From positions 21,993 through 85,992 of the forward strand of contig CAWAZH010000006.1 of the NCBI GenBank assembly GCA_963786575.1: a stretch of 64,000 nucleotides of DNA, written 5' to 3'. Position 1 is the stretch's first letter. Each line of letters begins with the position of its first letter. Below the pieces are notes generated by a model. That model made no database searches. It saw only the letters and a list, made by a program, of their open reading frames with translations, and was not told where the DNA came from. Origin of the DNA: an uncultured Actinomycetes bacterium. Lineage in GTDB: Bacteria > Actinomycetota > Thermoleophilia > Solirubrobacterales > Solirubrobacteraceae. The position numbers and the translations under genes are program-made. Below, in pieces: positions 8,839 through 51,155 of the stretch.

Positions 8839-9688
8839 CGACACTTCGCCGTCGGCGACCACGACGACGTCGCCCGAGACGCGCGGGCGGTCGTCCTCCC
8901 AGGCGCAGTCGATCCGGCTCGGGCGCCCCATCTCGGCGCCCTGGTGGACGGTCAGCTCGGTCGTCCCGTCGCGCTCGCGCAGGTAGGCGAGCAGCGGGCC
9001 GGCGGCCGAGCCGGTCGCCGGATCCTCGGCGATCCCCGCCGGGTCCAGGAAGAACCCGCGTGCCCGCGCGCTGCCGGCGCCGGGATCGACGGCGGCGAGG
9101 TAGAGGACCATCGCGCCGATCGGCTCCAGCAGCGCCCGCATGGCCGCGCGGTCGGGGGCGACGCGCGCGAGCGTCGCGGCGTCGCGGACCGGCGCGAGCA
9201 GGTGCGCGACGCCGGTGGAGACGACCTGCGGCGGATGCGCCTCGTCGGCGTCGGCGGCGCCCAGTCCGGCGGCGGCCATGACCTCGGCGACCGCTGGCTC
9301 GTCCGCGAAGACGGGCGGCTCCTGGAGCATCGTCGCGGTCGCGCGGTCGCCGTCGAGCGTCACCTCGACGGGCTGCAGCCCGGCCGGCGTCTGCTGGACG
9401 TAGCGCGCGTGCGACTCGCCGCGGGCGCGGGCGACCGCGACCGCCGTGCCGAGCGACGGGTGGCCGGCGAACGGCATCTCGCCGGGCGTCGCGAAGATCC
9501 GGTTGCGGTAGTCGGCGCCGGCCACGGTCGCGCGCTGGACGAAGGTCGTCTCCGACAGGCGCGTCTCGCGGGCGAAGGCGAGCATCGTCGCGTCGTCGAG
9601 GCCGTCGGCGTCGTGGACGACCGCCAGCTGGTTGCCCGGCGAGCGGGGTCGACGTGAAGACGTCGAGCCAGGTGAGGCGCCGGCGCAC
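8833..9688 (-). pseudogene. PhzF family isomerase, frameshifted (pseudogene or sequencing indel)
   Basis: The N-terminus VRRRLTWLDVFTSTPLAG is in one frame, and NQLAVVHDADGLDDATMLAFARETRLSETTF ... to the end is in another. The join is at a CCC run at 9635-9637 (GGC read as GGG-C). Length is 856 nt = 3n+1. Confidence 0.8.
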
Positions 9689-24063: not shown

Positions 24064-24176
24064 CGCACGACCGCAACGCCCGGTTCACACAAACGACATC
24101 TCCGCCACACGAAGGTGAAACCCCGCGCTGCCAGCGTGGTCACGGTCCACGCCTGCGGCCGTCCGGAGGAGTTTCC

Positions 24177-25735
24177 ATGAGCACGACCACTGCACCACCC
24201 CCGCGCACGGAGGCGCCGCCCGACCGAACGCCCGCCCCCGCGCCGTCGCGCCGCGGACGCTGGCTCGACGACTGGGATCCCGAGGACGAGACGTTCTGGG
24301 AGACCCGCGGCAGGAAGATCGCCAAGAAGAACCTCGTGCTCTCGATCTTCGCCGAGAACCTCGGCTTCTCGATCTGGGTGCTGTGGACGATCGTCGTCAT
24401 CAACCTCGCCAACGCCGGCTTCACGCTGTCGCTCTCCGAGCAGTTCCTGCTCATCGCGCTGCCCAACCTCGTCGGCTCGACGCTGCGGATCCCCTACACG
24501 TTCGCCGTGCCGAAGTTCGGCGGCCGCGCATGGACCGGGTTCAGCGCGTCGCTGCTGCTGATCCCGGTGCTGCTGCTGGCGATCCTCGTGCCCAGCGGCT
24601 GGCTGGCCGGACCAGAGCCACGGCACGCAGATGTGGGTGCTCGGCGCTGTGCGCCGCGACGGCCGGCTTCGGCGGCGGCAACTTCTCCTCCTCGATGGCG
24701 AACATCTCGTTCTTCTATCCCGACCGCCACAAGGGCTTCGCGCTCGGCCTCAACGCCGCCGGGGGCAACCTCGGCGTGGCCGTCGCGCAGCTGCTCGTCC
24801 CGCTGGTGATCATCATCGGCGTCCCGGTGGCGACCCACAAGCTGCCCGTCCACGACGTCCATCTCGCCTACGCCGGCCTCGTCTGGCTGCCGTTCATCGT
24901 CCTCGCAGCGGTCCTCGCCTGGCTCTACATGGACAGCATCACGGACGCCAAGACCGACCCGAAGACGTACACGAAGTCGCTGAAGCACAGCCAGACGTGG
25001 GTGATGTCGCTGCTGTACATCGGCACGTTCGGGTCCTTCATCGGCTACGCGTTCGCGCTGCCGCTCGTCATCAAGAACACGTTCCCGGAGTTCCTCGCCA
25101 GCCACCCGTTCATCGCGACGTACCTCGCCGGGCTGGGCTTCGTCGGCGCGCTCATCGGCTCGATCGCGCGGCCGCTCGGCGGCTGGCTGTCGGACAGGAT
25201 CGGCGGCGCGCGCGTGACGCTCGCGGTCTTCCTCGGCGAGGCGCTGTTCACGCTCACGGCGATCGTCGGCGTCAACGAGCACAGCTTCCCGATCTTCTTC
25301 GGGTCGTTCATGGCGATCTTCCTGCTCGCCGGCGCCGGCAACGGCTCGACGTACCGGATGATCCCCTGCATCTTCAGCGCGCTGGGGCGCAAGGAGGCGG
25401 CCGAGAAGGGCCTGGATGCGAAGGCGACCGCGCTGGACTTCAAGCACCAGGCGGCCGCCGTGATCGGCATCGCCGGCGCGATCGGCGCCTTCGGCGGCTT
25501 CCTGATCCAGGTCATCTTCCGGCAGGCGAGCCTCGGCGTGTCGGCCGCGGTCAAGGCCGCCGAGTCCCCGGCGGAGAAGCTCTCGATCGCGCAGGCGCAG
25601 GCCGACTGGTCGATCCCCGCGCTGTACGTCTTCCTGGCCGCCTACCTCGTCTTCGCCGGCATGACGTGGTTCTTCTACCTGCGCACGAGCTTCGCGACCG
25701 ACAAGGTCTCGAGCCTCGCGCACGCCTCCGTCTGA
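24177..25735 (+). pseudogene. narK: NarK/NasA family nitrate/nitrite MFS transporter, disrupted by two 1-nt insertions
   Basis: ATG 24177 with GGAGGA upstream. The N-terminal third is in frame 0 (LVLSIFAENLGFSIWVLW...). A short stretch DQSHGTQMWVL is in frame 1. The remainder (CAATAGFGGGNFSSSMANISFFYP... to the end) is in frame 2. Breaks are near 24610 and 24644. Length is 3n+2. Confidence 0.8.
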
Positions 25736-32008: not shown

Positions 32009-33210
32009 TTGCGCCTTAACCGCGTCAACTCCCGGCTGGTGCCCGCCGCGGTCGCGGGGCTGCTCGCGCTCACGCTCGCCACGAGCGCGGCGGCGCTCAC
32101 CAAGCGCGGTGGCAACGGCCCGGACACGATCGTCGGCACGCCCCAGGCCGACCGCCTCAGCGGCCAGGGCGGCAACGACCTCCTGCGCGGGCTCGGCGGC
32201 CGCGACGTGCTCGACGGCGGCGGCGGCAACGACGGCCTCAGCGGCGGCGCTGGCGACGACCGCCTGACCGGCCGCGGCGGCGCCGACCGGCTCACCGGCG
32301 GCGACGGCATCGATCGCGCCGACGGCGGCAACGGCCGCGACCGCGTCGACGGCGGCGACGGCTCCGACCGGCTCAACGGCGGCACCGACCGCGACACCGT
32401 CGTGGGGGGCGCCGGCGCGGACCGCGCCGACGGCGACGGCGGCGACGACCGCGTCGACGGCGGCACGCGGCGACGACCGGCTCTCCGGCGGCGCCCGGCG
32501 TCGACCGCGTCTTCGGCGGCGCCGGCGACGACACGCTCTTCGGCGGTTCCCAGGGCGACACGCTCGACGGCGGCGAGGGCGCCGACACGATCTCCGGCGA
32601 CGCAGCCGAGGACCGGCTCACCGGCGGCGCGGGCAACGACAAGCTCAACGGCGGCGCCGACGCCGACCGCGTCGACGGCGGCGCAGGCGACGACCGCGTC
32701 GACGGCGGCCTCGGGCCCGACCTGCTGGTCGGCGGCGCGGGCAACGACTTCATCGTCGAGCAGCGCTCCGACCCGCTCGAGAAGGTCGACGGCGGCGAGG
32801 GCGACGACTACATCTCCACCGCCGGCGGGCCCGATCGCGTGCTGCGCGGCGGGGCCGGCAACGACGTCGTCCACGGCGGCGCGATGCCCGCGAACCTCAG
32901 CGGCGCCGATCAGTTCGGCGACGGGATCTCCGACGGCGGGGCGGGCAACGACATCGTGACCGGCGGCGGCGCGCACGACGTGCTGGTGGGCGGCGACGGC
33001 GACGACATCCTCTACGGCGGCGCGCTGCTGGACGCCTACGACTGCGGCGCGGGCAACGACGTCGCGTTCGTCGAGAACGCGCTCGAGGGCCAGGTCGCGT
33101 CGGCGCGCGGCTGCGAGCGCGTGGTCATCGGCGACCCGTCGGCGAGCGACCCCAGCTTCGACGGCCTCAACGGCGCGCAGCACCCCGGCAAGACCACCGG
33201 CGGCGGCTGA
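32009..33210 (+). pseudogene. calcium-binding protein with hemolysin-type (RTX-like GGxGxDxLx) nonapeptide repeats, two 1-nt insertions
   Basis: TTG/GTG start with a Sec-type signal (VPAAVAGLLALTLATSAAA). More than 20 tandem nonapeptides follow (GGNDLLRGL GGRDVLDGG GGNDGLSGG ...). The frame breaks near 32465 and 32495. The C-terminal part is track ORF 32839..33210. Length is 3n+2. Confidence 0.75.
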
Positions 33211-33530: not shown

Positions 33531-34598
33531 CTAGCCGGCCAGCGGCGCGGGCCGGGCGCCCGCGCGCTTGCGCCAGCCGCGCTCGATCCCGGCGACGAAG
33601 CGCTTGGGCGACTGCGCGTAGAGCTCGCGGCCGAGCGCGAGCGCGCGCCGCTGCAGCGCGTCGCGGCGGCGGTCGAGGACCCCCAGCAGCGCCTGCTTGG
33701 AGGACTCGTCCTCGAAGCACTGCGGGTGCCTCAGGGCGTAGTCGCGCAGCACCGCGAGATCGTGGTCGTCGCCGAGCAGGTCGGCCAGCCGGTGCGCGCG
33801 CTTGGAGAGCCGCTTGAGCTTCTTCGGCGCCGCCGCGCGCAGGATCTGGGTCGCGTGCCAGAGGTCCTTGGCGCGCTTGCGGGCCTCGTGGAGGTTCTCC
33901 GTCGTCGGCTGCTTCGCCGCCGCGCGCATCCGCTTGCGCCCGCGGCGGTAGATGCGGCGCAGGCCGGGCTCGAGGGCGGCGAAGCCTGCGTCGTCGAGCG
34001 TCCACGCGGCTGTGCGGGTGCGGGCCTCGGCGAGCTCACTCGCCGTCGTGGCGATGACGACGTCGTCCTCGTGCAGCGCGGCGGTCGCGCGCTCCTGCTC
34101 GTCGTGCAGGCGCCGGCGCAGGGCGCTCGTCAGGCCCGGCGCGAGCTCGCCATCGAAGCGCTGCGTCAGCCCGTCGAGCGTCTCGACGAGCACCTGCGCG
34201 TCGCGCGTGGCGGAGAGGCGCCGGCCCGCCATCCGGAAGGCCGTGTTCTCGCGGTCGTAGGTCTGCTCGCCGAGCGCGTCGCGGCCGAGACGCAGCGCGG
34301 CGCGCAGGCGCTTGAGGTCCTTGCGCGTGGCGTGCACGGCCGCAGGCAGGTCGCGCTTGGAGGCCCCGTCGAGGCGGTCGCGGGCGTCGTCGAGGCGACC
34401 GCGCGCGATCCGGCGCAGGCCGTCGGGCACGTGTTCGTGGGTGCGCAGGCGGTAGGCGCGATCGAACGCGGCGTCGGCCTTCGCTTGGGCGCGGCGCTCG
34501 TGGGCGAGCCTGCCGCCCGCGGCGGCGGCGCCCGCCAGCGCGACCGCGGCAGCGGCTGCGGCCTTGCCCGCGGCGGGAGGGGTGCGCGACTTCGCCAT
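33531..34598 (-). CDS. CHAD domain-containing protein
   Basis: 355 aa, all-helical and Arg/Ala-rich, with repeated H-x-x-RK-x-x-K-x-LR motifs (VHATRKDLKRLRAALR; LHEARKRAKDLWHATQIL; LGDDHDLAVL) typical of CHAD. Confidence 0.8.
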   Translation of the reverse strand: MAKSRTPPAAGKAAAAAAVALAGAAAAGGRLAHERRAQAKADAAFDRAYRLRTHEHVPDGLRRIARGRLDDARDRLDGASKRDLPAAVHATRKDLKRLRAALRLGRDALGEQTYDRENTAFRMAGRRLSATRDAQVLVETLDGLTQRFDGELAPGLTSALRRRLHDEQERATAALHEDDVVIATTASELAEARTRTAAWTLDDAGFAALEPGLRRIYRRGRKRMRAAAKQPTTENLHEARKRAKDLWHATQILRAAAPKKLKRLSKRAHRLADLLGDDHDLAVLRDYALRHPQCFEDESSKQALLGVLDRRRDALQRRALALGRELYAQSPKRFVAGIERGWRKRAGARPAPLAG

Positions 34599-34627: not shown

Positions 34628-34816
34628 TTATTCGCCGTCCGGGTGCTCGGCCTGCTGCTCGAGCTTCGCCTGCAGGTAGGCGGCCTTGTCGGCGCGCCGC
34701 ACGGCGGCGCGTTCCTCGGAGTCGGTCAGCGCGCGCTCGGCGCGCTCGCGCTCGGCGTTCTCGCGCGCGGACTGCTCGAGCTGGAGGGTCTCGGTGGTGG
34801 GGTCGTCGTCGCGCAT
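34628..34816 (-). CDS. hypothetical small charged protein
   Basis: 62 aa: MRDDDPTTETLQLEQSARENAERERAERALTDSEERAAVRRADKAAYLQAKLEQQAEHPDGE. Clean ORF with G/C-ending codons. Confidence 0.5.
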   Translation of the reverse strand: MRDDDPTTETLQLEQSARENAERERAERALTDSEERAAVRRADKAAYLQAKLEQQAEHPDGE

Positions 34817-34839
34817 GGGACGTCTTCAGGTTGTCTGCC

Positions 34840-34863
34840 CGCTCAGCGCCGCCGCAACCCCCG
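34840..34863. repeat. left copy of a perfect 24-bp direct repeat CGCTCAGCGCCGCCGCAACCCCCG
   Basis: Identical to 37046-37069. Read on the minus strand it is an orphan copy of the last codons (GLRRR-stop) of the flippase gene. Confidence 0.95.
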
Positions 34864-37005
34864 TCAGCAATCCGGGGGATCGCCGTACAGGTCGACGAAC
34901 TTGCCGCTGACCCACCGCCCCGCGAGGTCGGCCGGCCCGGCAAGGTGAAGCCACGTCGTCGCCGCGGCCGCATCCGGCTCGTCTGCGACGAGCGCAACCG
35001 CATCGGGCTCGGCCGGGCCGGGCTCGGCCGGGCCGGGCTCGGCCGGGCCGGGCTCGGCCGCGGTCTGGCACGCGACATCGACGACGCGGTCCCGATCGAG
35101 GGTCGCGACGACGTCGCGGGGATTGTCGCTGAGTTCTGGGGACGCCCGCACGGCAACCGCATCCGCGGAGATGAAGCCGGGCACCGCGTCGGTCGGGCCG
35201 CACGCCCGAGTCGGGCTTCCGACCGAGACGAGTCGCTTGTGGTCGCGCCCGATACACGCGCCCTCGTCGCCGATGTCGAAGTACCACGGCGGGGCGCGGA
35301 GGCTCCGGCAGATGATCCCGGTCACTCGCGAGCCGCAGAAGAAGGTGCCGCCCGGCGTGATGAAATCGGCGCCGACACCCATCTTCCTGGGAGCAGACAG
35401 TGTCGACAGGAGGCCGCTGTCGACCACCGCGGGCCGCGCGCCGGCCGGCATCGCGATCGTCACGTTGGCTGGATTTGAGTGACAGACCACCTCGTCGTCG
35501 TCAGCCTGGCAGACCTGACGTCCGTCGGCGCTCGCGAACTCGCCGCTGTACGTCGCCTTCCATTTGTCGCAGGGCCGCGGGCCGCTGCCCTGGGGACCGG
35601 TTTCGCTCTCCGTGTTGAGCCGCGCCATCGCGTCCTTGTCGCCGAACACCACCCAGACCGTGCCTCCGCTGGTGGCGATCGCCTTCGGTCGCGAGCCGAT
35701 CGCGAACGTCGCGGTGTGCCCGTCATCGGGCGCTACGCGCGTGACCGTTCCGTCCGTCTTGTTGGCGACCCACACAAATCCGTCCTCCCCGACGGTGATC
35801 GCGCTCGGCCCCCGGCCCACGCGGATCGCAGGCCCGACCTGGCCCGTGGCGCTGTCGATCGAGTTCACCGTCCCGTCACACCCGTTCGTCACCCAGGCTG
35901 TCTCACCGTCGGCGGTGAGCGCAATCTTGTGAGGCCCGTTGCCGACGAGCGCTCGGGTCGGCGCCAGCTTCAGATCGTCGCCACCGTCGCCGACATCGAT
36001 CCAGCGGACGGATCGCTCGTTGAGGATCGAGCGATCGCGCTCGAGGTCTGTGCGCGAGTTGACTTCGGCCGCGAACCAGATGCGGCGCGGGCCCGCGGCG
36101 ACGTCGCTGAAAACGATGTGGACGGGAATATCCTGCACGACGTCTCGTCGGTCGCCAACGCGTATCCGGTGCACGATGCGGTTCGGCATCCGCGGCCCAG
36201 AGCGTGTCTCCCGCCGGGTTGATCGCAAGGGCTGGGGAGCGGTCCGAAGCGGACCTCCGAGACCTTCTTGAGGTGCTTCGGGTCGATGCGCGTGAGGGTC
36301 GACGCCGGACATGTCTTGTCCGCGACCGGGGCGGCAACTCAGCGCCCACACCCATTCTGTGCTCACGACGACGCTGCTTGCGAGGTTGCCCACAGAGACC
36401 CCCCGCACTCGCGTGCCTGATTGCGTGAGCCAGACCGAATCGGGCGCCGGGTCGTCGGCGGGACCGTTGTACGCGACCCAGACGGTGTCCTTCTTCACCC
36501 CCGGATCCGGGGGCGACACCGCTGCGTCGACTCCGACACTCGGCGTGGTGTCGCGCGGTTGGTGCGCCGCGGCTTCGGCTCGCGTCGGTGGCCAGTGGCT
36601 GAACGGCGTCGTTCCGAGGACGCCCTTCCACACTCCGGCCAGAGCACCCACGCTCACCAGCGCGACGACGCCCCACGCCCGTAGTCGCAGCGCGCGCTTG
36701 ACCCGATCGGTCGCCTGGTCGCCGGCGCGAAGCAGCGCGTCACGATCCTGGCCGCCTGACGTGAGCACCCGAAACGCCCGTGCCCGTCGAAACCCGCTCA
36801 CGCGGCTGTCCAGTTCCGTCGACAGCTCCGACTGCGCCGCCTGCACCTGAGCACTGCTCTCGTCGGTGGCCTTCATCACAGCCGCCACGCGCTTCTGGAC
36901 CTCGAGCAGGTGGGCGCGCCGGTCCGTGAACCATTTCGTCAACAGCCCGAGCGCGATCGCCACCACAGGAGTACCGAGGACCAGCAGGAGGTCTTCGGTA
37001 CTCAC
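34864..37005 (-). CDS. membrane-anchored hypothetical protein with YVTN-type beta-propeller repeats, Cys-rich region, (AEPGP)n linker and SH3-like C-terminus. Lower GC than the surroundings. Three internal compensating 1-nt insertions.
   Basis: 713-aa open ORF. N-terminal TM plus a coiled region. Repeats such as GTVNSIDSATGQVGPAIRVGRGPSAITVGEDGFVWVANKTDGTVTRV. The region coded by about 36181-36300 reads better in the other two frames (TLTRIDPKHLKKVSEVRFGPLPS / LAINPAGDTLWAADAE). Many A/T-ending codons. Confidence 0.7.
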   Translation of the reverse strand: MSTEDLLLVLGTPVVAIALGLLTKWFTDRRAHLLEVQKRVAAVMKATDESSAQVQAAQSELSTELDSRVSGFRRARAFRVLTSGGQDRDALLRAGDQATDRVKRALRLRAWGVVALVSVGALAGVWKGVLGTTPFSHWPPTRAEAAAHQPRDTTPSVGVDAAVSPPDPGVKKDTVWVAYNGPADDPAPDSVWLTQSGTRVRGVSVGNLASSVVVSTEWVWALSCRPGRGQDMSGVDPHAHRPEAPQEGLGGPLRTAPQPLRSTRRETRSGPRMPNRIVHRIRVGDRRDVVQDIPVHIVFSDVAAGPRRIWFAAEVNSRTDLERDRSILNERSVRWIDVGDGGDDLKLAPTRALVGNGPHKIALTADGETAWVTNGCDGTVNSIDSATGQVGPAIRVGRGPSAITVGEDGFVWVANKTDGTVTRVAPDDGHTATFAIGSRPKAIATSGGTVWVVFGDKDAMARLNTESETGPQGSGPRPCDKWKATYSGEFASADGRQVCQADDDEVVCHSNPANVTIAMPAGARPAVVDSGLLSTLSAPRKMGVGADFITPGGTFFCGSRVTGIICRSLRAPPWYFDIGDEGACIGRDHKRLVSVGSPTRACGPTDAVPGFISADAVAVRASPELSDNPRDVVATLDRDRVVDVACQTAAEPGPAEPGPAEPGPAEPDAVALVADEPDAAAATTWLHLAGPADLAGRWVSGKFVDLYGDPPDC
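35005..35060. repeat. 15-bp tandem repeat GGGCTCGGCCGGGCC x3.7
   Basis: Read directly. It encodes AEPGP x3-4 within the 34864..37005 gene. Confidence 0.95.
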
Positions 37006-37045
37006 GGCGCCACCGTAACCGAAAGGGAGGACTTCACCGCCGCGG

Positions 37046-37069
37046 CGCTCAGCGCCGCCGCAACCCCCG
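37046..37069. repeat. right copy of the 24-bp direct repeat, inside the 3' end of the flippase gene
   Basis: Identical to 34840-34863. Covers codons GLRRR plus the stop of CDS 37049..38497. Confidence 0.95.
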
Positions 37070-38497
37070 CAGACCCGCGCGCTCCTCCGGGCGCATGAAG
37101 CCCGTGAGCGCGAACGCCACGGGCAGCGCCGCGAGCGCCAGCGCGCGCGCCGCGAAGCCGCCCGCGCCGCTGGTCGGCAGCAGCAGCTCGCCGGCGACCG
37201 AGACGCCCACCAGCAGCGCCGCCGCGTGCGCCAGCCGGCCCCACTCGAAGGGCACGGTGAACAGGCGGCGCGTGAGCAGGTGCAGGACGACGAGCATCAC
37301 CGCGTAGGACGCGACGAGGGCGATGCCGGCGCCCTTGATCCCGAGCGGGTCGACGAGCAGTACGAGCACGACGACGTTGACGACGACGCCGGCGAACGCC
37401 GCGGGGAACGTCCGCGTCGTCACGCCCGCCCGGCCGCCGATCGTCACGAGCACGAGGAACAGCCCGTACATCGCCCAGCCCAGCGCGACCCACGGCAGCG
37501 CCTCGTGCGCCTCGAAGTACTCCGGCGCGGCGAGCAGGCGAACGACCCAGCGGCCGAGCAGCGTCAGGCCGGCGACGACGAGCCCCGCGACGACGACGTA
37601 CCAGGTCGTGACCGCCGCGTAGAAGCGGCGGGCGCGGTCGTCGTCCTCGATCGAGTAGGCGAGCGGCGGCCAGGCGAGCTGGAAGCCGCGCACCGCGAGG
37701 ATCACCGCCGTCGCGAGCTTCACCGACAGCGCGAACAGGCCGGCCGCGGCCGCGCTCTGCGAGCGCAGGATGTAGGCGCGGTCGATGACGTTCAGCGCGA
37801 AGACGGTCGCGTCGGCGGGCACGGTCGGGACGCCGAAGGCCAGCAGCGGCGCCAGCGCGAACGAGTCGCCGACCTGCAGCCCCAGGCGCCCGCGCAGCGT
37901 CCACCACAGGCCGGCGAGGACGACCGCGGACGCCGCGTAGTTGCCCAGCAGGTAGCCGCGCGCGCCCTGGTCGAGCACGACCACAAGCGTGACCGTCAGC
38001 ACCACGCTCAGCACGACGTTGCTCAGGGACGCGATCAGATACGTGCGCCGGCGCTCGTCGACCCGCAGCAGCGCGTAGGCGATCTCGAGGTTCGTGAACG
38101 ACCACAGGCCGAGGACGGCGATCCGCATGAGCCCGGCCTCCTCGAAGCCGAGCAGCAGCTCGCTGAGCGGCCCCGCGAGCGCAACGGCGAGCAGTGAGGC
38201 CGTGGTCGTCGTCAGCAGCACCGCGGCGCTCGTCGTGCGCGCGAGCTTGTCGCGCTCGTCCTCGGGCGTCGTGAAGTAGAAGCGCACGAACGCCTCGCCG
38301 AGCCCCAGGCGCAGCAGGATCGACGCGAGGATGATGAACGTCAGCAGCGTCTCGGCGACGCCGAAGTCCGACCGGCTCAGCGCCCGCGTGTACAGCGGCA
38401 GCGTCACGAGCGCCAGCACGGCCGACGCGACGCTCGCCGCCTGGTAGCTCGCGCCGCCCCTCAGCAGGCGCGTGAAGAGGCTGGCCACTCCCGCCAC
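37049..38497 (-). CDS. oligosaccharide/polysaccharide flippase (Wzx-like, MOP superfamily)
   Basis: 482 aa with about 12-14 TM helices. N-terminal region SVASAVLALVTLPLYTRALSRSDFGVAETLLTFIIL is typical of polysaccharide biosynthesis (Polysacc_synt) proteins. Confidence 0.85.
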   Translation of the reverse strand: MAGVASLFTRLLRGGASYQAASVASAVLALVTLPLYTRALSRSDFGVAETLLTFIILASILLRLGLGEAFVRFYFTTPEDERDKLARTTSAAVLLTTTTASLLAVALAGPLSELLLGFEEAGLMRIAVLGLWSFTNLEIAYALLRVDERRRTYLIASLSNVVLSVVLTVTLVVVLDQGARGYLLGNYAASAVVLAGLWWTLRGRLGLQVGDSFALAPLLAFGVPTVPADATVFALNVIDRAYILRSQSAAAAGLFALSVKLATAVILAVRGFQLAWPPLAYSIEDDDRARRFYAAVTTWYVVVAGLVVAGLTLLGRWVVRLLAAPEYFEAHEALPWVALGWAMYGLFLVLVTIGGRAGVTTRTFPAAFAGVVVNVVVLVLLVDPLGIKGAGIALVASYAVMLVVLHLLTRRLFTVPFEWGRLAHAAALLVGVSVAGELLLPTSGAGGFAARALALAALPVAFALTGFMRPEERAGLRGLRRR

Positions 38498-40947: not shown

Positions 40948-41841
40948 TCAGGCCGGCTGGGCGACATCGCGCGCGAGGCCCGCGACGTCGAGGATGCCGA
41001 GCGCGCCGAGGCCGCCGGCCCGCCGCGCCGAGCTCGCCGGCGCGCCCGCCCGCAGGCAGGCGGCGAGCGCCTCGGGATCGTCGCTGGCGACGGCGAGTCG
41101 CCGCGTCGCCAGCGCCTCGCGAAACGGTCGCTGGAGCATGACGGGCTCGCTGAGCTCGAGCCAGACGTCGACGCGACCGCGCGCCGCCAGCAGCGCGACG
41201 GCGTCGCGCTCGGTCAGCGCCCGCCCGCCCGCGACGCGCTCGGTGCGCGCGACCGCCCTCTCCACGGCTCCGTGCGGCACGCGCACGCGGTACAGCGGGC
41301 CGTTGCGCAGCACGGCCGCGGACGCGCCGACGCGGTGCGGGTAGGCGCGCGCGCCGAGCGCGAAGCCCCAGAGCCAGACGAGCGCGTAGGCGTGCAGCGC
41401 GGTGAAGATCCAGGCGACGAGGCCGCCTCCCAGCAGCAGGTGCATCGCGACGCCCTCGCTCACGACGACCGGCGTCAGCGCGAGCGCGAGCGCCAGCCCG
41501 AAGGTGCCGCGGTGATAGGCCATCCCCGGCCCCTGGCGCCCGAGCAGCAGCCGCGGCAGCGCGGTCATGACGTCGAGCTCCGTCCGCGCGAGCGCCCGTC
41601 CGCGGGGGTGCATCAGCAGATCGCGCAGCGCCTCGCCGCGCTCCCCGCCCAGCCGCCACGCGGCGACCGCCACGGCCGTCCACAGCGCGGCGCGCACGCC
41701 GAGCACGAGCGCGCCCTGATGCACGCCGTAGACGTGCCCGACGACCAGCGCGACCGGCACCGTGACGACGAACGACCAGCGCCTGATCCGGCGCACGCGC
41801 GGTCGCATGAGCCACGCGACCAGGGCGTCGAGCAGGCGCAT
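40948..41841 (-). CDS. hypothetical membrane protein (4-5 TM plus soluble C-terminal domain)
   Basis: ATG 41841 overlaps the stop of the upstream MFS gene (ATGA). Hydrophobic N-terminal half. No family recognised. Confidence 0.6.
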   Translation of the reverse strand: MRLLDALVAWLMRPRVRRIRRWSFVVTVPVALVVGHVYGVHQGALVLGVRAALWTAVAVAAWRLGGERGEALRDLLMHPRGRALARTELDVMTALPRLLLGRQGPGMAYHRGTFGLALALALTPVVVSEGVAMHLLLGGGLVAWIFTALHAYALVWLWGFALGARAYPHRVGASAAVLRNGPLYRVRVPHGAVERAVARTERVAGGRALTERDAVALLAARGRVDVWLELSEPVMLQRPFREALATRRLAVASDDPEALAACLRAGAPASSARRAGGLGALGILDVAGLARDVAQPA

Positions 41842-43397: not shown

Positions 43398-43447
43398 CAG
43401 CCAGGAGGTTACGCAGGCGAGCTCCCCGGCCCGCCACACTTCACAGG

Positions 43448-44686
43448 GTGAGCGACGCGCCGGGTCCCGCAGCGCCCGCCGACCAGGCGGGTCTCGCGCA
43501 TGTCGCCACCGCGTCGTTCCTCTCCTCGCGCGTCGTGCCGACCGGCGGCTTCGCGGTCGCGCTGGCCGGCGGCGTGGCGCTCGCGCGGGCGGCCCAGTGC
43601 GCCGGCGCGCGCACCGGGTACGGCGCGAGCCTCGCCGCGATGCTGCAGACGATCGCCGTCATGGGCCCGGCGCGCATCGGGATCCCGCTGACGCAGGCCG
43701 TGTCGGCGCCGTGGCTCGGGCGGCTGCACGCGCGCCGCGCCGCCTTCGTGACGCAGCTCGCCGCCTGCGCGTTCGTGCGCGCCACCGACCAACTCGTCAC
43801 GACGGCCTTCTACATCTGGATCATCCTCGGCGGGCTCGACGTCTACGCGGGGACCTACGACGCGCTGCTCGGCAGGCTGCCGGTTCCGCCGGGCGCGGCG
43901 GGCGCGCTGCTGGTCACCGTCGCCGGCCTGCTGGCGTGGACGGTCTTCGCGAGCGTCGTGCAGGTCGCGGTCTATCGCCGCGGGCTGCTGGGATGGCCGG
44001 ACGCGCGAGCCGCCGAGAGCGCCGTGCGCGAGGCTCCGGCGGACGGGCCGGCGCAGCGCCCGCGCTTCGATCCCCGCGCCGTCGCGGTCTGCGCGATCGT
44101 CGCCTTCGCCGTGCTCCTGGCCAGCACCGCGTGGGCGGTCCTCGCCGCCGTGACGGCCTGGCTCGCGATCGCCTGGGCGACCGCGCGCGGGGACCGCGAG
44201 CCGATCCGCGCCGGCCTGGCGCTCGCCGCCACGCTGGCGATCGGCGCGCTCGCCTTCGGCCTCGTGAGCGGCGCGGGCCTCGACATCACGTTGCAGCGCA
44301 CCGCGCGCGCCGCGCTGCTCGTCCTCGTCGCGACCTGGCTGCGCGCGGCGGCCGGCGAGGACGGGCTGCGCGAGGTCGCGCGCCGCGGGCTGCAGCGCCT
44401 GCACTGGCTGCCCGCCGCCGACGAGGCCGCGGCGATCCTCGAGCGCCTCGGCGCTCGCGGCGGCCTGGCGGCCTCCGGCAGGGCGCTCGTGGAGACCGTC
44501 CGCCACGTGCCGCGCAAGGCGGCGCCGCTCGCGTCCGCGGTCCTGCTGTGGATCGCCGCCGAGGCCGCCCGCTACGCGCCCGCGACGGGCGTCGCGCCGG
44601 CCGTGCTGCGCACGCGCACGCACGACCGCGCGCTCGTCGCGCTGGTGGTCGCCGCGGCCGCGACGCTGGCGCTGCCGGTGGGCTAG
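43448..44686 (+). CDS. hypothetical polytopic membrane protein
   Basis: About 412 aa from GTG 43448. Multiple hydrophobic segments, G/C-ending codons. No family recognised. Confidence 0.55.
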   Translation: MSDAPGPAAPADQAGLAHVATASFLSSRVVPTGGFAVALAGGVALARAAQCAGARTGYGASLAAMLQTIAVMGPARIGIPLTQAVSAPWLGRLHARRAAFVTQLAACAFVRATDQLVTTAFYIWIILGGLDVYAGTYDALLGRLPVPPGAAGALLVTVAGLLAWTVFASVVQVAVYRRGLLGWPDARAAESAVREAPADGPAQRPRFDPRAVAVCAIVAFAVLLASTAWAVLAAVTAWLAIAWATARGDREPIRAGLALAATLAIGALAFGLVSGAGLDITLQRTARAALLVLVATWLRAAAGEDGLREVARRGLQRLHWLPAADEAAAILERLGARGGLAASGRALVETVRHVPRKAAPLASAVLLWIAAEAARYAPATGVAPAVLRTRTHDRALVALVVAAAATLALPVG

Positions 44687-46114
44687 TCAGCCCGCGACCG
44701 CGTCGGCGGCGTTGACCTCGCTGCGCAGCGCGGGCGCCCTGGCCGGAAGCCAGCGCCACGCGACGACGGCGCCCAATGCCGCCACGAGCGCCAGGACGAT
44801 CGACGCGCGCGACATCGCATGGACGAATGCCTCGCGCGCCGCGCCGGTCCCGACGGCCGCGCCGAGCGACGCCACGATGCTGCCCACGACGGCGACGCCG
44901 AGTGCGCCGCCGAGCTCGCGCGTCGTGTCGTTGACGGCCGCGCCGATGTTGGCGCGTGCAGGCGGCAGCGACCCCATGATCGACTCCGTCGCCGGCGCCC
45001 CCGCCAGCCCCATCCCGGCGCCCATGAGGACCAGGGCGACCGCGAGCCGCCCGTAGCCCGCGCTCGTCTCGACCGTCGACGCGACGGCAAGGCCGGTCGC
45101 GAAGAGCGCCATGCCCGTGGTGGCGACGCCCTTGGTGCCGAAGCGGGTCACGAGCATCGACGACAGCGGCGCGCACACGATCATCGCTCCGGCGTAGGGC
45201 AGGATCCGCACCCCCGCGGCCGACGGCGAGAAGCCCAGGACGAACTGCAGGTACTGCGTCGACAGGAAGAGGAACCCGAAGAGCGCGAAGAACAGCACCA
45301 TGACCGTGCCGCTCGCCGCGCTGAAGCGGGCGTCCCTGAACAGGCGGACGTCGAGCAGCGGCTCCGCGACGCGCCGCTGCCACACGACGAACCCGGCCAG
45401 CGCGATCGCGGCGAGCACGATCGCGGCCAGCACGGGGACGGAGGTCCAGCCCTTCGACGGCGCCTCGATGACCGCCCAGACGAGGGCGACGAGGCCGGCG
45501 CCGGACAGTCCCGCGCCCGTCCAGTCGATCCGCCGCGTCACGGGATCGCGCGACTCGGGGAGCAGCCGCAGCCCGGCGACGACCGCGATCGCGGTCAGCG
45601 GGACGTTGACGATGAAGATCGACCCCCACCAGAAGCGGTCGAGCAGCAGGCCGCCGACCACCGGGCCGAGCGCGACCCCGAGCCCGGCGGTCGCGGCCCA
45701 CAGGCCGATCGCCGTGGCGCGCTCGCGGGGGTCGGTGAAGACGCCGATCACCAGCGAGAGCGTCGCCGGCATGATCAGCGCGGCGCCGGCGCCCATCACC
45801 GCGCGGGCGAGGATCAGCCCGTCGACCCCGCCCGCGTAGGCGCTCCACGCCGAGGCGGCTCCGAACAGCGCGAGCCCGCAGAGCAGCATGCGCCGGCGCC
45901 CGAAGCGATCCCCGAGCGCACCGGCCAGCAGCAGCAGCCCGGCGAACACGAGCGTGTACGCGTCGACAACCCACTGCAGCTCGCTCAGGTCGGCGCCGAG
46001 GTCGCGTGCGAGCGTCGGGAGCGCGACGTTGACGATCGTGTTGTCGACGACGATCGCCAGCAGGCTCACGCACAGCACGCTCAGCGCCAGCCAGCGCCGG
46101 CGCGCGCCGCTCAC
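44687..46114 (-). CDS. MFS transporter, DHA2 (EmrB/QacA) family
   Basis: GTG 46114 overlaps the upstream stop (GTGA). VDNTIVNVALPTLARDLGA ... LGDRFGRRRML ... SIFIVNVPL. Confidence 0.88.
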   Translation of the reverse strand: MSGARRRWLALSVLCVSLLAIVVDNTIVNVALPTLARDLGADLSELQWVVDAYTLVFAGLLLLAGALGDRFGRRRMLLCGLALFGAASAWSAYAGGVDGLILARAVMGAGAALIMPATLSLVIGVFTDPRERATAIGLWAATAGLGVALGPVVGGLLLDRFWWGSIFIVNVPLTAIAVVAGLRLLPESRDPVTRRIDWTGAGLSGAGLVALVWAVIEAPSKGWTSVPVLAAIVLAAIALAGFVVWQRRVAEPLLDVRLFRDARFSAASGTVMVLFFALFGFLFLSTQYLQFVLGFSPSAAGVRILPYAGAMIVCAPLSSMLVTRFGTKGVATTGMALFATGLAVASTVETSAGYGRLAVALVLMGAGMGLAGAPATESIMGSLPPARANIGAAVNDTTRELGGALGVAVVGSIVASLGAAVGTGAAREAFVHAMSRASIVLALVAALGAVVAWRWLPARAPALRSEVNAADAVAG

Positions 46115-46821
46115 GAGGTCACCGGCGCCGAGCTCCTCGCGGAGAGGCCGGCGCCGGCGCGGCGCTCGTGGACGAGGATCACGACCGCGAAGGCGATCAG
46201 CCACACGCACCACAGCACGTACCCGACGAAGTTCGCGGTGTCGACGGCGGGCAGCCCGAGCGGCGAGAGGACTCCGGCGACGACGAGCCCCGCGGCCACG
46301 GCGCCCAGCGCCGGGAACCAGCGTCCCGCGTAGCGGCGCCCGAGCGCGGCGATGACGAGCACCGTCCAGGCGGCCGTCAGCAGGTACCCGAGCGTCTCTC
46401 CGATCGCCGTGCCGAGGATGTCGCTCGCGGTCGTGAACGAGTCGCGCGCGGCCGCCGCGACGCCGGGGTCGGCGCTCGCGGCATCCGACGCGTAGCCGGG
46501 CACGAGGAGCGGCCAGCGCGACAGGCCGACGACCTGCACGACGGCCGCCGCGATGCCGACCGGCACCGCGATCCGCATCAGGCGGCTGGACGACAGGCGC
46601 CCGACGCCGATCGCCATCGGAGCGAACAGGGCGGCGGACAGCGCGAGGACCGAGAACCACCCGCTGACGGCGCCCTGGTTGTCACGGAAGTCCGCGAGCA
46701 CCTGGCCCGCGGGCTCGTCGAGCACGTCGGGGTAGTTGAAGATCGAGCCGAGGGCCGTGAAGCCCACGTTGGCCAGGACGGCCGCGAGGATCAGCAGGAA
46801 TGCGGTGAGCTTGAGGTTCAT
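46111..46821 (-). CDS. DUF4386 domain-containing membrane protein
   Basis: 236 aa with 6 TM helices. N-terminal region MNLKLTAFLLILAAVLANVGFTALGSIFNYPDVL is typical of DUF4386. Confidence 0.75.
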   Translation of the reverse strand: MNLKLTAFLLILAAVLANVGFTALGSIFNYPDVLDEPAGQVLADFRDNQGAVSGWFSVLALSAALFAPMAIGVGRLSSSRLMRIAVPVGIAAAVVQVVGLSRWPLLVPGYASDAASADPGVAAAARDSFTTASDILGTAIGETLGYLLTAAWTVLVIAALGRRYAGRWFPALGAVAAGLVVAGVLSPLGLPAVDTANFVGYVLWCVWLIAFAVVILVHERRAGAGLSARSSAPVTS

Positions 46822-47168
46822 GTGAGCTCCTGGTCGGTGGTGGTTGTGCGGTGACTCGCGCCGGCGATCCAGGCGACGAGGACGTTGTCGGGGTGGTCGA
46901 CGAGGTGGTCGCGGGCGAGGGCGTCGACGAGCTCGCGATCGCCGCGCAGGTGCGCGGTTGCGATCGCCACGAGCTGGCGGTCGCGGGTGGTCGCCGCGAC
47001 GCCCTGGGCGCGGGCCACGAGGCCCGCTCCGTCGGGAGCGAACAGCGCGGCCGCGACGAGGATCAGCGGGTCGTCGCTGGTCCGCGACGCCGCGACGATC
47101 GCCGCGATCGCCGCGGCGTCGCCGACGACGAGTTGGTGCAGCAGCTGCTCGGCGGGCGTCGGTGGCAT
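46818..47168 (-). CDS. hypothetical helical protein, first gene of the operon divergent from the SARP gene
   Basis: ATG 47168. The 116-aa product is Ala/Leu-rich. Its stop overlaps the next start (ATGA). It is the C-terminal tail of track ORF 46818..49307, whose upstream part is antisense shadow. Confidence 0.55.
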   Translation of the reverse strand: MPPTPAEQLLHQLVVGDAAAIAAIVAASRTSDDPLILVAAALFAPDGAGLVARAQGVAATTRDRQLVAIATAHLRGDRELVDALARDHLVDHPDNVLVAWIAGASHRTTTTDQELT

Positions 47169-47189
47169 GGGGCCCAGCGTCGACGTCGC

Positions 47190-47240
47190 CGCTGACACGG
47201 CGCTGACACCCCGCTGACCGTTCCCGGCCGCCCGTAGACT
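47190..47240 (+). promoter_or_regulatory. three direct repeats CGCTGAC(A/C)(C/G) at exact 11-bp spacing (candidate SARP boxes) plus a TAGACT -10-like hexamer
   Basis: CGCTGACAC at 47190 and 47201, and CGCTGACCG at 47212. TAGACT at 47235-47240 lies 6 nt before the GTG start of the SARP gene, which would give a leaderless-type layout. The third repeat sits where a -35 element would be. Confidence 0.5.
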
Positions 47241-47246
47241 CGTTCG

Positions 47247-50246: not shown

Positions 50247-51096
50247 CGACGATCGCGATGCCGGCGATCTGGCGGTGGTTGACCACCTCGCCCAGGATCA
50301 GGAACGACCACACGACGGCGAGCGCGGGCTGCGCCACCTGCGCGATCGCGATCGTGCCGATCTGGATCGACTTCTGCGCGAACACCAGCAGGCCCTGGGC
50401 GGCGACGCCGCTCGTGAACGTCAGGATCAGCATGTAGGTCCAGCCGGTGGCGCTCATCCCGAAGACGTCGCCGTGGGCGATCGCCAGCGGCAGCACCGCC
50501 ACCGCCGCGATCGGGCAGATCGTCGACATGAACGTCGTGACGTCCATGTCGCGGCGGAAGTGCTTCGTCGCCGCGACGTAGGCCACGAGCAGCAGCATCG
50601 CGAGCAGGCCGAACGCGTTGCCCTCCAGCGAGGCGTCGCCGTTGGGCGGGGCGCTGAACAGCACGATGCCGACGCCGCCGAACGCGACGCCTGCGAAGAC
50701 GAGCGCACGCGGGTTGATGTACTCCCGGAACAGCCAGGCGCCGACCGGCACGATGAGAAACGGGGCCAGCGATCCGATCAGCGCGGCGTTGGCGACGCTG
50801 TTGTGCGTCGCCCCGGCGAAGAACACGGCGAGGTTCAGCCCGAAGAAGATCCCCGGCACGAACACCTGGCGGACGTTGCCCATCGTGATCCGCCGGCCCG
50901 TGCTCAGGAGCACGAGGTTCCAGACGACGGTGACGGTGACCATTCGCCAGAACGCGACGAGGACGCCGGGCGACTCCGCGCGCTTGACGAGCGTCGAGCT
51001 GAGCGAGAAGGCGATCACCATCCCGACGACCGCGAGCACCCCGAACGTCCTCGCGCTCACCGCGGGCGTTCGCTGCGGTGAAGCCACGACTGTCAC
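50188..51096 (-). CDS. DMT superfamily (EamA-like) transporter
   Basis: 302 aa with 10 TM helices in two EamA-like halves. The 3' end overlaps the SARP gene end by 59 nt. Confidence 0.8.
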   Translation of the reverse strand: MTVVASPQRTPAVSARTFGVLAVVGMVIAFSLSSTLVKRAESPGVLVAFWRMVTVTVVWNLVLLSTGRRITMGNVRQVFVPGIFFGLNLAVFFAGATHNSVANAALIGSLAPFLIVPVGAWLFREYINPRALVFAGVAFGGVGIVLFSAPPNGDASLEGNAFGLLAMLLLVAYVAATKHFRRDMDVTTFMSTICPIAAVAVLPLAIAHGDVFGMSATGWTYMLILTFTSGVAAQGLLVFAQKSIQIGTIAIAQVAQPALAVVWSFLILGEVVNHRQIAGIAIVVSGLLAFVVAHQRRPGRAP

Positions 51097-51155
51097 GCCC
51101 GTCCCACAGTACGCGCGGGCGCGGGCCCGCGCCGGTCAGTTCCTACAATCCGGCG

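What the first reader, a model, noticed from the sequence alone, without database searches (positions are those of the whole stretch)
34840..37069. Single-gene, lower-GC 2.2-kb insertion bracketed by perfect 24-bp direct repeats that duplicate the 3' end of the flippase gene
- **Repeat:** the 24-mer CGCTCAGCGCCGCCGCAACCCCCG occurs at 34840-34863 and again at 37046-37069, 2206 bp apart and in the same orientation.
- **What each copy is:** the right copy is the true 3' end of the Wzx-like gene (codons GLRRR plus stop). The left copy is an orphan duplicate of that gene end.
- **Cargo:** exactly one ORF (34864..37005) fills the space. Sampled 60-nt lines in it are about 60-64% GC, against over 70% in the flanks, and it uses many A/T-ending codons.
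- **Interpretation:** duplication of a target gene's 3' end is the classic scar of site-specific integration (attL/attR). Here there is no integrase, transposase or other mobility gene, and the cargo is a single membrane-anchored beta-propeller/SH3-like protein with an (AEPGP)n linker.
- **Possible explanations:** a cassette-like mobile unit mobilised in trans, or the last remnant of a decayed island.
- **Context:** it interrupts a polysaccharide locus, between wzx and the genes downstream of it.
Basis: partly seen in the sequence, partly recalled or inferred. Interest (0 to 1): 0.7.

Follow-up and report, generated by a model that had tools for sequence, protein, structure and literature searches.

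The report
Foreign single-gene insertion behind flippase gene
A soil actinobacterium (family Solirubrobacteraceae) recently acquired one foreign gene for a membrane-anchored beta-propeller protein directly behind a flippase gene, and the last 24 bases of that flippase gene were duplicated on both sides of the insert; it is a clean scar of horizontal gene transfer, with no sign so far that the piece can move by itself.

Summary
**Observation: confirmed.**
- The 24-mer occurs exactly twice in the window, at 34840-34863 and 37046-37069, in the same orientation.
- It brackets 2,182 bp: a 40-nt leader plus one ORF.
- The right-hand copy is the real end of the Wzx-like gene (RGLRRR, stop, 3 nt).

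**It is an insertion.**
- The closest species (L003) has wzx, then 48 nt, then the same 62-aa gene, then CHAD, with no cargo.
- The cargo is absent near wzx in all 79 related genome loci.
- Two independent assemblies of the same species (98-99% identical) carry the same structure, so it is not an assembly artefact.

**It is foreign.** GC3 is 0.84 against 0.956±0.015 in window genes. A CAI-like index is 0.50 against 0.76±0.04.

**The cargo** is a rare protein with two hydrophobic N-terminal segments and a YVTN-type beta-propeller. Only one distant homologue exists in the public data searched.

**Mobility is not shown.**
- No integrase, transposase or terminal inverted repeats were found.
- No other copy of the repeat was found in a related context.
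- No other insert at this variable wzx-CHAD junction has flanking repeats.
- The wzx tail is hypervariable between species.

**Conclusion.** I favour a one-off illegitimate insertion with target duplication. A decayed or trans-mobilised att-flanked element is less likely. Interest is modest.

The parts
37046..37069 (-). Proximal copy of the 24-bp direct repeat. It is the genuine 3' end of the Wzx-like gene: codons RGLRRR, the stop codon at 37049-37051, and 3 further nt.
   Evidence: It is colinear with the wzx end of the empty site in L003.
34840..34863 (-). Distal, orphan copy of the 24-bp repeat. It directly abuts the cargo stop codon and is followed by the native sequence upstream of the 62-aa gene.
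   Evidence: In L001 and L002 this copy has one mismatch (CCGGGG instead of CGGGGG).
34864..37045 (-). Inserted DNA proper, 2,182 bp: a 40-nt leader (37006-37045) plus the cargo ORF. It has no terminal inverted repeats.
   Evidence: - Absent from L003 and from 78 other related loci.
- GC 0.699 against 0.746 in the flanks.
- The terminal-inverted-repeat test scored below the null.
34864..37005 (-). Cargo ORF of 713 codons in the window (712 in L001 and L002).
- Two N-terminal hydrophobic segments.
- A YVTN/NHL-type beta-propeller at about residues 190-465.
- A Cys-rich C-terminal region.
- A PE-rich linker and a short C-terminal tail.
   Evidence: - Translation.
- Weak Pfam hits to Vgb_lyase, SGL and NHL.
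- Homologues share only the propeller.
- The AlphaFold2 propeller has pLDDT 70-93.
- The best Foldseek match is the 1L0Q YVTN propeller.
- Hydropathy.
- GC3 0.838 and CAI-like index 0.50.
36184..36334 (-). A 150-nt stretch bounded by three 1-nt insertions (36334, 36242, 36184) relative to L001 and L002. About 50 codons of one propeller blade are read out of frame, and the net +3 keeps the ORF open. This is either real decay or local sequencing error.
   Evidence: -.
- GC3 of the ORF frame drops to 0.62 here.
- These are the only coding indels in 12 kb of window-versus-L001 alignment.
35004..35060 (-). Perfect 15-nt tandem repeat, 3.8 copies, encoding the (AEPGP)n linker. The units are diverged in L001 and L002.
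37049..38497 (-). Wzx-like MOP-family flippase gene (Polysacc_synt / Polysacc_synt_3). It is the target gene and remains intact because its last 24 nt are duplicated.
   Evidence: Orthologues were found in 79 loci.
34628..34816 (-). Native 62-aa gene downstream of the insertion. In L003 it lies directly after wzx.
33531..34598 (-). Native CHAD-domain gene. It is the conserved right-hand neighbour of wzx in many relatives.

Best explanation
**What it is.** This is a recent, lineage-specific horizontal acquisition in a Solirubrobacteraceae bacterium. A compact, promoterless fragment from a lower-GC donor was joined into the chromosome at the very end of the wzx-like gene. The fragment is a 40-nt leader plus one complete gene for a membrane-anchored YVTN beta-propeller protein.

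**Where it landed.** The site is the wzx-CHAD junction, which varies in gene content between species.

**Mechanism I favour.** A one-off, recombinase-independent (illegitimate) integration. The 24-bp target segment was copied on both sides in one of three ways:
- fill-in of staggered ends at a break;
- an overlapping joint;
- a template switch that re-copied 24 nt.

The duplication left wzx intact. The cargo is co-oriented with wzx, the 62-aa gene and the CHAD gene, so it would be transcribed by read-through.

**Status today.** The insert is a passive islet, not a self-mobile element. In the window strain it may already be decaying.

**Shown:** the insertion, its boundaries, its foreign composition, the absence of mobility genes and inverted repeats, and its fixation in three assemblies.

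**Inferred:** the joining mechanism and expression by read-through.

**Confidence.** The figure of 0.5 refers to the mechanism. That it is a genuine foreign insertion with target duplication I put at about 0.9.
For: **Insertion**
- The empty site in the nearest species, L003, is colinear across both junctions.
- tblastn at E<=1e-5 finds no cargo within ±10 kb of wzx in 79 related loci.

**Foreign origin**
- GC3 is 0.838 against 0.956±0.015, and the CAI-like index is 0.50 against 0.76±0.04.
- Only three instances of the cargo exist among about 15 billion proteins.
- One distant homologue sits on a contig that looks lower in GC by eye.

**Not an artefact**
- The window, a JGI contig and a Logan contig share the structure at 98-99% identity. 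One has a substitution in one repeat copy.

**Against dedicated mobility**
- No integrase or transposase domains in the genes scanned across 22-45 kb.
- No terminal inverted repeats.
- The wzx tail is hypervariable, so there is no conserved target.
- Other inserts at this hotspot are unrelated and lack flanking repeats.
- The repeat has no related copies in the metagenome or viral collections.
- No plasmid or phage DNA match.
- No mobility families among the 25 commonest Pfam families downstream of wzx in about 30 close relatives.

**Literature context**
- 10-18% of small variable segments in bacterial genomes are flanked by direct repeats, mostly under 30 bp, and much of this microdiversity is attributed to illegitimate recombination (PMC2884548).
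Against: - A 24-bp duplication is long for a simple break-repair scar. I know of no bacterial pathway documented to give exactly this.
- The insert is strikingly compact. It ends exactly at the cargo's natural stop codon, as the homologue P0149 confirms, and it starts only 40 nt before the start codon. A random fragment would rarely be so tidy. A cassette-like element would be.
- The hypothetical circular junction folds somewhat better than shuffles as single-stranded DNA (z = -2.66, 2 of 200).
- Only 64 kb of the genome was visible. A recombinase or further copies of the 24-mer elsewhere cannot be excluded.
Confidence: 0.5

Rival explanations
1. Site-specific integration. The 24-mer is the identity block of attL and attR. 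The insert is either the last remnant of a decayed integrative element (a CIME-like element that lost its integrase) or a minimal cassette mobilised in trans by a recombinase encoded elsewhere.
For: - Duplication of a gene's 3' end that keeps the gene intact is the classic outcome of tyrosine-recombinase integration (textbook knowledge).
- Integrase-less elements that keep attL and attR are a described category, the CIMEs (PMC5704250).
- The unit is extremely compact, an ORF plus 64 nt. Small hairpins straddle both junctions.
Against: - No recombinase in the genes scanned across 22-45 kb.
- No dyad-symmetric core by inspection, and no room for arm sites.
- The target sequence is not conserved even in the nearest species; by eye about 7 of 24 positions differ.
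- No second instance of the att sequence in a related context, and none of the cargo elsewhere.
- The other inserts at this junction have no repeats.
- A decayed island would have had to lose everything except one gene while keeping both att sites perfect.
Confidence: 0.25
2. Homology-facilitated illegitimate recombination from a close relative. Donor DNA carried wzx followed by the cargo. It recombined homologously within wzx. Its other end, the cargo stop codon, then joined illegitimately 24 nt upstream of the recipient's wzx end. The wzx tail is therefore present twice.
For: - It explains why the repeat is exactly the wzx 3' end and why no mobility genes are present.
- One-sided homology plus an illegitimate joint is discussed as a source of such dimorphic loci (PMC2884548).
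- The junction is a hotspot flanked by conserved genes.
Against: - It needs a donor lineage that already has wzx-cargo adjacency with an identical wzx tail. None was found among the 79 species.
- It only pushes the origin of the adjacency back one step.
Confidence: 0.12
3. The cargo and the repeats are ancestral. The 'empty' relatives lost the gene by deletion between the direct repeats.
For: Short flanking repeats are known substrates for deletion (PMC2884548). Only one species, L003, offers a strictly comparable empty site with the 62-aa gene.
Against: - The cargo's codon usage is far from that of the host, so it has not been resident long.
- It is absent from all 79 related loci, and the gene is nearly unique in public data.
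- The repeats are still 24/24 or 23/24 identical, although the wzx tail evolves fast.
Confidence: 0.05
4. Assembly artefact, or a chance repeat in GC-rich DNA.
For: - The window probably comes from a metagenome-assembled genome.
- High-GC DNA gives chance exact repeats of up to 21 nt in this window.
Against: - Three independent assemblies from different samples share the structure, with normal strain-level divergence.
- The repeat copies coincide with the insertion boundaries defined independently by L003.
Confidence: 0.02

Closest known systems
Small variable segments or genomic islets flanked by short direct repeats (Touzain et al. 2010, PMC2884548)
   Same: - A segment of a few kb, present in one lineage and absent in a close relative.
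- It sits at a gene boundary, has no mobility genes, and is flanked by a direct repeat shorter than 30 bp.
- Illegitimate recombination is the proposed origin.
   Different: - In that survey the repeats were mostly read as deletion substrates. Here the polarity is clearly a gain of foreign DNA.
- This repeat is an exact duplication of the target gene's end.
- The phylum is different (Thermoleophilia rather than E. coli, Staphylococcus or Streptococcus).
CIMEs (cis-mobilizable elements): decayed ICEs or IMEs that keep attL and attR but have lost their integrase (definition in PMC5704250). From memory, the Streptococcus thermophilus elements at the 3' end of fda, with repeats of about 27 bp, are the classic case.
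   Same: - Integrase-less cargo flanked by direct repeats of about 25 bp.
- The repeats duplicate the 3' end of a protein-coding gene, which stays intact.
   Different: - No cognate ICE or integrase is known.
- There is no conserved target and no second occurrence.
- The element is a single gene with no remnant of transfer or recombination modules.
Integron gene cassettes
   Same: A promoterless single ORF with very little non-coding DNA. A hypothetical circular form of 2,206 bp would carry only 64 non-coding nt.
   Different: - No attC-like imperfect palindrome and no GTTRRRY core by inspection.
- No IntI, attI or cassette array.
- Cassette insertion does not duplicate 24 bp of target.
Non-autonomous transposons with long target-site duplications (from memory: IS1634/IS1182-type elements give long, variable duplications; casposons give 14-15 bp)
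   Same: A direct duplication of the target flanks the inserted DNA.
   Different: - No terminal inverted repeats.
- No transposase in the genes scanned.
- No other copies.

Membership tests
Integrative element with attL/attR (tyrosine-recombinase type), including CIME remnants | Direct repeats at both ends that are identical to the target (attB) core | tested here: met
   24/24 identity in the window and 23/24 in L001 and L002. One copy is the native wzx end.
Integrative element with attL/attR (tyrosine-recombinase type), including CIME remnants | A cognate integrase in the element, or a related integrase-bearing element that uses the same att site | tested here: not met
   - No recombinase domain in the insert or in the genes scanned across 22-45 kb.
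- No element with this att sequence in 79 related loci or in the metagenome or viral scans.
- The rest of the genome was not visible.
Integrative element with attL/attR (tyrosine-recombinase type), including CIME remnants | A conserved target sequence reused across hosts, as with tRNA or conserved gene ends | tested here: not met
   The wzx 3' tails differ in nearly every species. By eye the L003 site differs at about 7 of 24 positions.
Integrative element with attL/attR (tyrosine-recombinase type), including CIME remnants | Excision to a circular form and an empty site | not testable with these tools
   This needs reads or PCR. The pattern scans found no circular junction or same-species empty site, but the collections may not include the relevant samples.
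DDE transposon or MITE-like non-autonomous element | Terminal inverted repeats | tested here: not met
   The best local alignment of the two ends scored 12 against a null of 14.3±2.2.
DDE transposon or MITE-like non-autonomous element | Multiple copies in the genome or in relatives | tested here: not met
   A single copy in the window. The cargo is found only at this locus, in three assemblies.
Integron gene cassette | An attC recombination site (an imperfect palindrome with R''/R' core sites) 3' of the ORF, and an integron platform (intI, attI) | tested here: not met
   - The junction region folds only into three short hairpins.
- No GTTRRRY core by inspection.
- No integrase nearby.
Horizontally acquired genomic islet | Presence/absence polymorphism against close relatives, plus atypical composition | tested here: met
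YVTN/NHL-type beta-propeller proteins (the cargo) | Repeated four-stranded blades with sequence or structure similarity to YVTN/NHL propellers | tested here: met
   - Sub-threshold Pfam hits to Vgb_lyase, SGL and NHL.
- Thousands of propeller-repeat hits.
- A confident AlphaFold2 propeller whose best PDB match is the 1L0Q YVTN propeller.
   No Pfam match at E<=1. Residues 466-712 have pLDDT of about 25.

The most novel reading that the evidence does not exclude
The 2,206-bp unit (ORF plus 24-mer plus 40-nt leader) is a minimal, integrase-less gene cassette. It would excise as a circle and re-integrate through the 24-bp core using a recombinase encoded elsewhere in the genome. That would be a cassette system in Thermoleophilia unrelated to integrons. 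The variable wzx-CHAD junction would then be its docking hotspot.
Probability: 0.07. Interest if true: 0.7.

Novelty: new member of a known kind. Interest (0 to 1): 0.33.

Why it matters
This is an unusually clean natural example of how a single foreign gene enters a bacterial chromosome without any visible mobile-element machinery.
- Both junctions are intact.
- An empty site exists in a sister species.
- Amelioration has barely begun.
- Decay may already be starting in one strain.

The phylum is poorly studied and known almost only from metagenomes. The case therefore gives a concrete substrate for asking which repair or recombination pathway produces 20-30-bp target duplications during gene gain.

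If the repeat proved to be a working recombination site, it would point to a new minimal cassette system. As the evidence stands, this is a well-documented but ordinary gene-gain scar.

Tried and rejected
**Look-ups that found nothing useful**
- Exact-protein look-ups for Wzx (two start choices), CHAD and the window's cargo found nothing. Only the 62-aa protein retrieved sister contigs.
- A scan of metagenome contigs with the 22-mer gave 6 loci. All were unrelated chance matches in other genes, for example GVAAALS-type signal peptides. No empty site or circular junction was found. The viral contigs gave 0.
- Plasmid and phage DNA searches, and a viral-contig search with the C-terminal domain profile, all found nothing.

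**Tests of a recurrent docking site**
- I searched for duplicated wzx ends downstream of wzx in all related loci. Only L001 and L002 have one. A 17-mer in L007 is low-complexity noise.
- A wider screen for direct repeats of at least 20 nt across 1.47 Mb of loci found the following:
  - paralogous genes in L006, L073 and L081;
  - a chance 22-mer in L013 with the same 2,203-bp spacing;
  - an odd mosaic duplication in L027, noted separately.

**Structure and signals**
- RNA folds of attL, attR and the L003 site are no more stable than shuffles.
- No promoter-like sites, and no more terminator-like sites than chance.
- Terminal inverted repeats: none.

**Other indels relative to L003**
- A 7.7-kb block and the replaced segment at 39.5-41.9 kb have no flanking repeats.

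**Cargo structure**
- Structure prediction failed for the C-terminal third, so the SH3-like claim stays untested.

**Limits**
- The genome-wide copy number of the 24-mer could not be checked.
Full report
**1. Observation**

The 24-mer CGCTCAGCGCCGCCGCAACCCCCG occurs at 34840-34863 and 37046-37069 on the + strand. It occurs nowhere else in the window, even with 3 mismatches. The bases on either side differ, so the perfect repeat is exactly 24 nt.

It is the longest dispersed exact direct repeat in the 64-kb window outside one gene's internal repeats. The RTX-repeat gene contains an equally long internal 24-mer, and the longest chance pair is 21 nt. Junction windows in related loci share at most 9-15 nt.

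All genes here lie on the minus strand:
- a Wzx-like MOP flippase at 37049-38497 (Polysacc_synt / Polysacc_synt_3);
- one ORF at 34864-37005, the cargo;
- a 62-aa gene at 34628-34816;
- a CHAD-domain gene at 33531-34598.

Read in gene orientation, the repeat is CGG GGG TTG CGG CGG CGC TGA GCG. That is the last six codons of wzx, its stop codon and three further bases. The second copy begins immediately after the cargo's TGA stop codon.

**2. It is an insertion, and it is real**

A search with the Wzx protein retrieved 79 loci. All are from Solirubrobacteraceae and other Thermoleophilia, which identifies the organism.

In the closest species (L003, Wzx 90% identical) wzx is followed after 48 nt by an orthologue of the 62-aa gene and then by CHAD. 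The L003 sequence aligns colinearly with the window across both junctions. tblastn finds no cargo within ±10 kb of wzx in any of the 79 loci.

Two independent assemblies from other samples are 98.8% and 98.2% identical to the window: a JGI contig (L001) and a Logan contig (L002). Both carry the same insert at the same place. Their distal repeat copy differs by one base. An assembly artefact is therefore excluded. The insertion predates the split of these strains and postdates the split from L003.

**3. It is foreign**

| Measure | Insert / cargo | Comparison |
|---|---|---|
| GC | 69.9% | 74.6% in flanks |
| GC3 (intact reading frame) | 0.838 | 0.956±0.015 in 23 window genes; lowest 200-codon window there is 0.855 |
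| CAI-like index, trained on those genes | 0.50 | 0.76±0.04 |

The reference genes were chosen for high GC3, which is partly circular. They are, however, most of the window's genes.

**4. The cargo**

Relative to L001 and L002, the window copy has three single-base insertions at 36334, 36242 and 36184. Together they add 3 nt. About 50 codons are therefore read out of frame while the ORF stays open. GC3 in the ORF frame falls to 0.62 over this stretch. These are the only coding indels in 12 kb of alignment with L001. They may be real early decay or local sequencing error. I could not decide which.

The intact 712-aa protein (P0001) has these features:
- hydrophobic segments at residues 3-26 and 108-131;
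- long N-terminal helices;
- a confidently predicted beta-propeller at about residues 190-465, whose best PDB match is the YVTN propeller 1L0Q;
- only sub-threshold Pfam hits to Vgb_lyase, SGL and NHL;
- a Cys-rich region;
- a PE-rich linker encoded by a perfect 15-nt x 3.8 tandem repeat;
- a short C-terminal tail.

An exhaustive profile search of 1.84 billion representative proteins found thousands of propeller-repeat matches but no full-length relative. One partial homologue, P0149, is 34% identical. It covers the last blade and the whole C-terminal region, and it ends at the same terminal cysteine. It comes from a 1.66-kb metagenome contig.

Only three copies of the cargo itself exist in a collection of about 15 billion proteins. 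The 'SH3-like' label could not be verified.

**5. Evidence on mobility**
- No integrase, resolvase or transposase domains in the insert or in the genes scanned across 22-45 kb.
- The insert has no terminal inverted repeats.
- The repeat has no obvious dyad symmetry. Folds of attL and attR are no better than shuffles.
- A hypothetical circular junction folds into three short hairpins with z = -2.66. That is suggestive at most.
- The 3' tail of wzx is hypervariable between species. The 24-mer is therefore not a conserved docking sequence.
- The 22-nt core was not found in viral contigs. In metagenome contigs it matched only unrelated genes.
- There are no plasmid or phage matches.

**6. Context: a variable junction**

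Among relatives that keep CHAD near wzx, the gap varies as follows:

| Loci | Content between wzx and CHAD |
|---|---|
| L009, L014, L015, L047 | under about 30 nt (overlapping in L009) |
| L003 and this lineage | the 62-aa gene |
| L004, L010, L026 | an OsmC-like gene on the other strand |
| L007, L011, L018, L021/L045 | other unrelated genes, up to 4.6 kb |

None of these inserts has flanking repeats above background. In many other relatives wzx is followed by GT2 or GT4 glycosyltransferases. No mobility family is among the 25 commonest Pfam families there.

In the window itself the nearest glycosyltransferase is 7 kb away. 'Polysaccharide locus' is therefore a loose description. The other differences from L003 are a 7.7-kb block and the replaced segment at 39.5-41.9 kb; neither has flanking repeats.

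**7. Interpretation**

What is shown:
- a recent gain of a compact foreign gene at the end of wzx;
- a 24-bp duplication of the target that leaves wzx intact;
- fixation in the species-level lineage sampled three times.

What is inferred is the joining mechanism. I favour a single illegitimate integration in which 24 nt of target were copied on both sides, with confidence of about 0.5. My reasons:
- Nothing indicates dedicated or repeated mobility.
- The target is not conserved.
- Short flanking repeats are a known feature of small variable segments attributed to illegitimate recombination (PMC2884548).

Two things speak for it. One is the classic '3'-end duplication' signature. The other is the tidiness of the unit, which starts 40 nt before the start codon and ends exactly at the natural stop codon.

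The remaining rivals:
- homology-facilitated illegitimate recombination from a relative that already carried wzx-cargo, about 0.12;
- ancestral presence with loss elsewhere, about 0.05;
- artefact or chance, about 0.02.

**8. Novelty and verdict**

This is a new member of a known kind: a horizontally acquired islet or small variable segment flanked by a short direct repeat. It is unusually clean and comes from a little-studied phylum.

Interest is modest at 0.33. It would rise sharply only if reads or further genomes showed excision, a circular form, or other cargo flanked by the same 24-mer.

Noticed in passing
window 36184-36334: Three 1-nt insertions relative to two sister assemblies, all within 150 nt of the cargo gene, adding 3 nt in total. 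They are the only coding indels in 12 kb of window-versus-L001 alignment. About 50 codons are scrambled but the ORF stays open. This is either early pseudogenisation or a local sequencing or polishing error.
   Followed up: partly
window 35004-35060: The 15-nt tandem repeat encoding (AEPGP)n is perfect in the window. In L001 and L002 it carries 5 substitutions over the same length. That suggests either repeat homogenisation in this strain or divergence in the others.
   Followed up: partly
window 41192-41316: A 125-bp segment is present in the window and absent from L001. It lies between the MFS transporter gene and the GNAT/MarR genes. No clear flanking repeat was seen.
   Followed up: partly
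window 43413-51142: A 7.7-kb block with normal GC (0.75) is absent from the syntenic region of the closest species, L003. It has no flanking direct repeat (longest shared word 9 nt). The adjacent 39.5-41.9 kb segment (cupin, MarR, GNAT) is also not alignable to L003.
   Followed up: partly
L027 8053-8136 and 11462-11589: In another Solirubrobacteraceae MAG, an 84-bp internal piece of the wzx 3' region is duplicated 3.4 kb downstream at 98% identity. A 44-bp copy of 9078-9121 follows it immediately. This mosaic suggests a second, independent rearrangement next to wzx, or a MAG assembly chimera.
   Followed up: partly
L084 2805-2833 versus window 34838-34866: An unrelated metagenome contig shares 29 identical nt with the distal repeat copy and its immediate flanks. 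There the sequence lies in what looks like a signal-peptide coding region. It is probably chance, but the match is longer than expected.
   Followed up: partly
L088 1-1177: The only distant homologue of the cargo sits on a 1.66-kb contig that looks lower in GC by eye. The propeller part appears to continue upstream of the called gene, interrupted by an in-frame TGA. That copy may also be a pseudogene or contain an error.
   Followed up: no
window 32020-33210 (+): A gene made of RTX calcium-binding nonapeptide repeats (HemolysinCabind, E = 4e-29). It produces the dense 27-nt-period direct repeats seen in the repeat scans.
   Followed up: no
window 24119-25735 (+): An MFS transporter ORF with GC3 of about 0.85 and GC of 0.69, similar to the cargo and well below neighbouring genes. 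It may be another recently acquired gene. No flanking repeat of 15 nt or more was seen.
   Followed up: no
L045, L047, L056, L058, L059, L060 (wzx region): The wzx orthologues in several 'MFD' MAGs align to the query in two or three frame-shifted pieces. This suggests indel errors typical of long-read assemblies. It matters for judging the frameshifts in the window's cargo.
   Followed up: no
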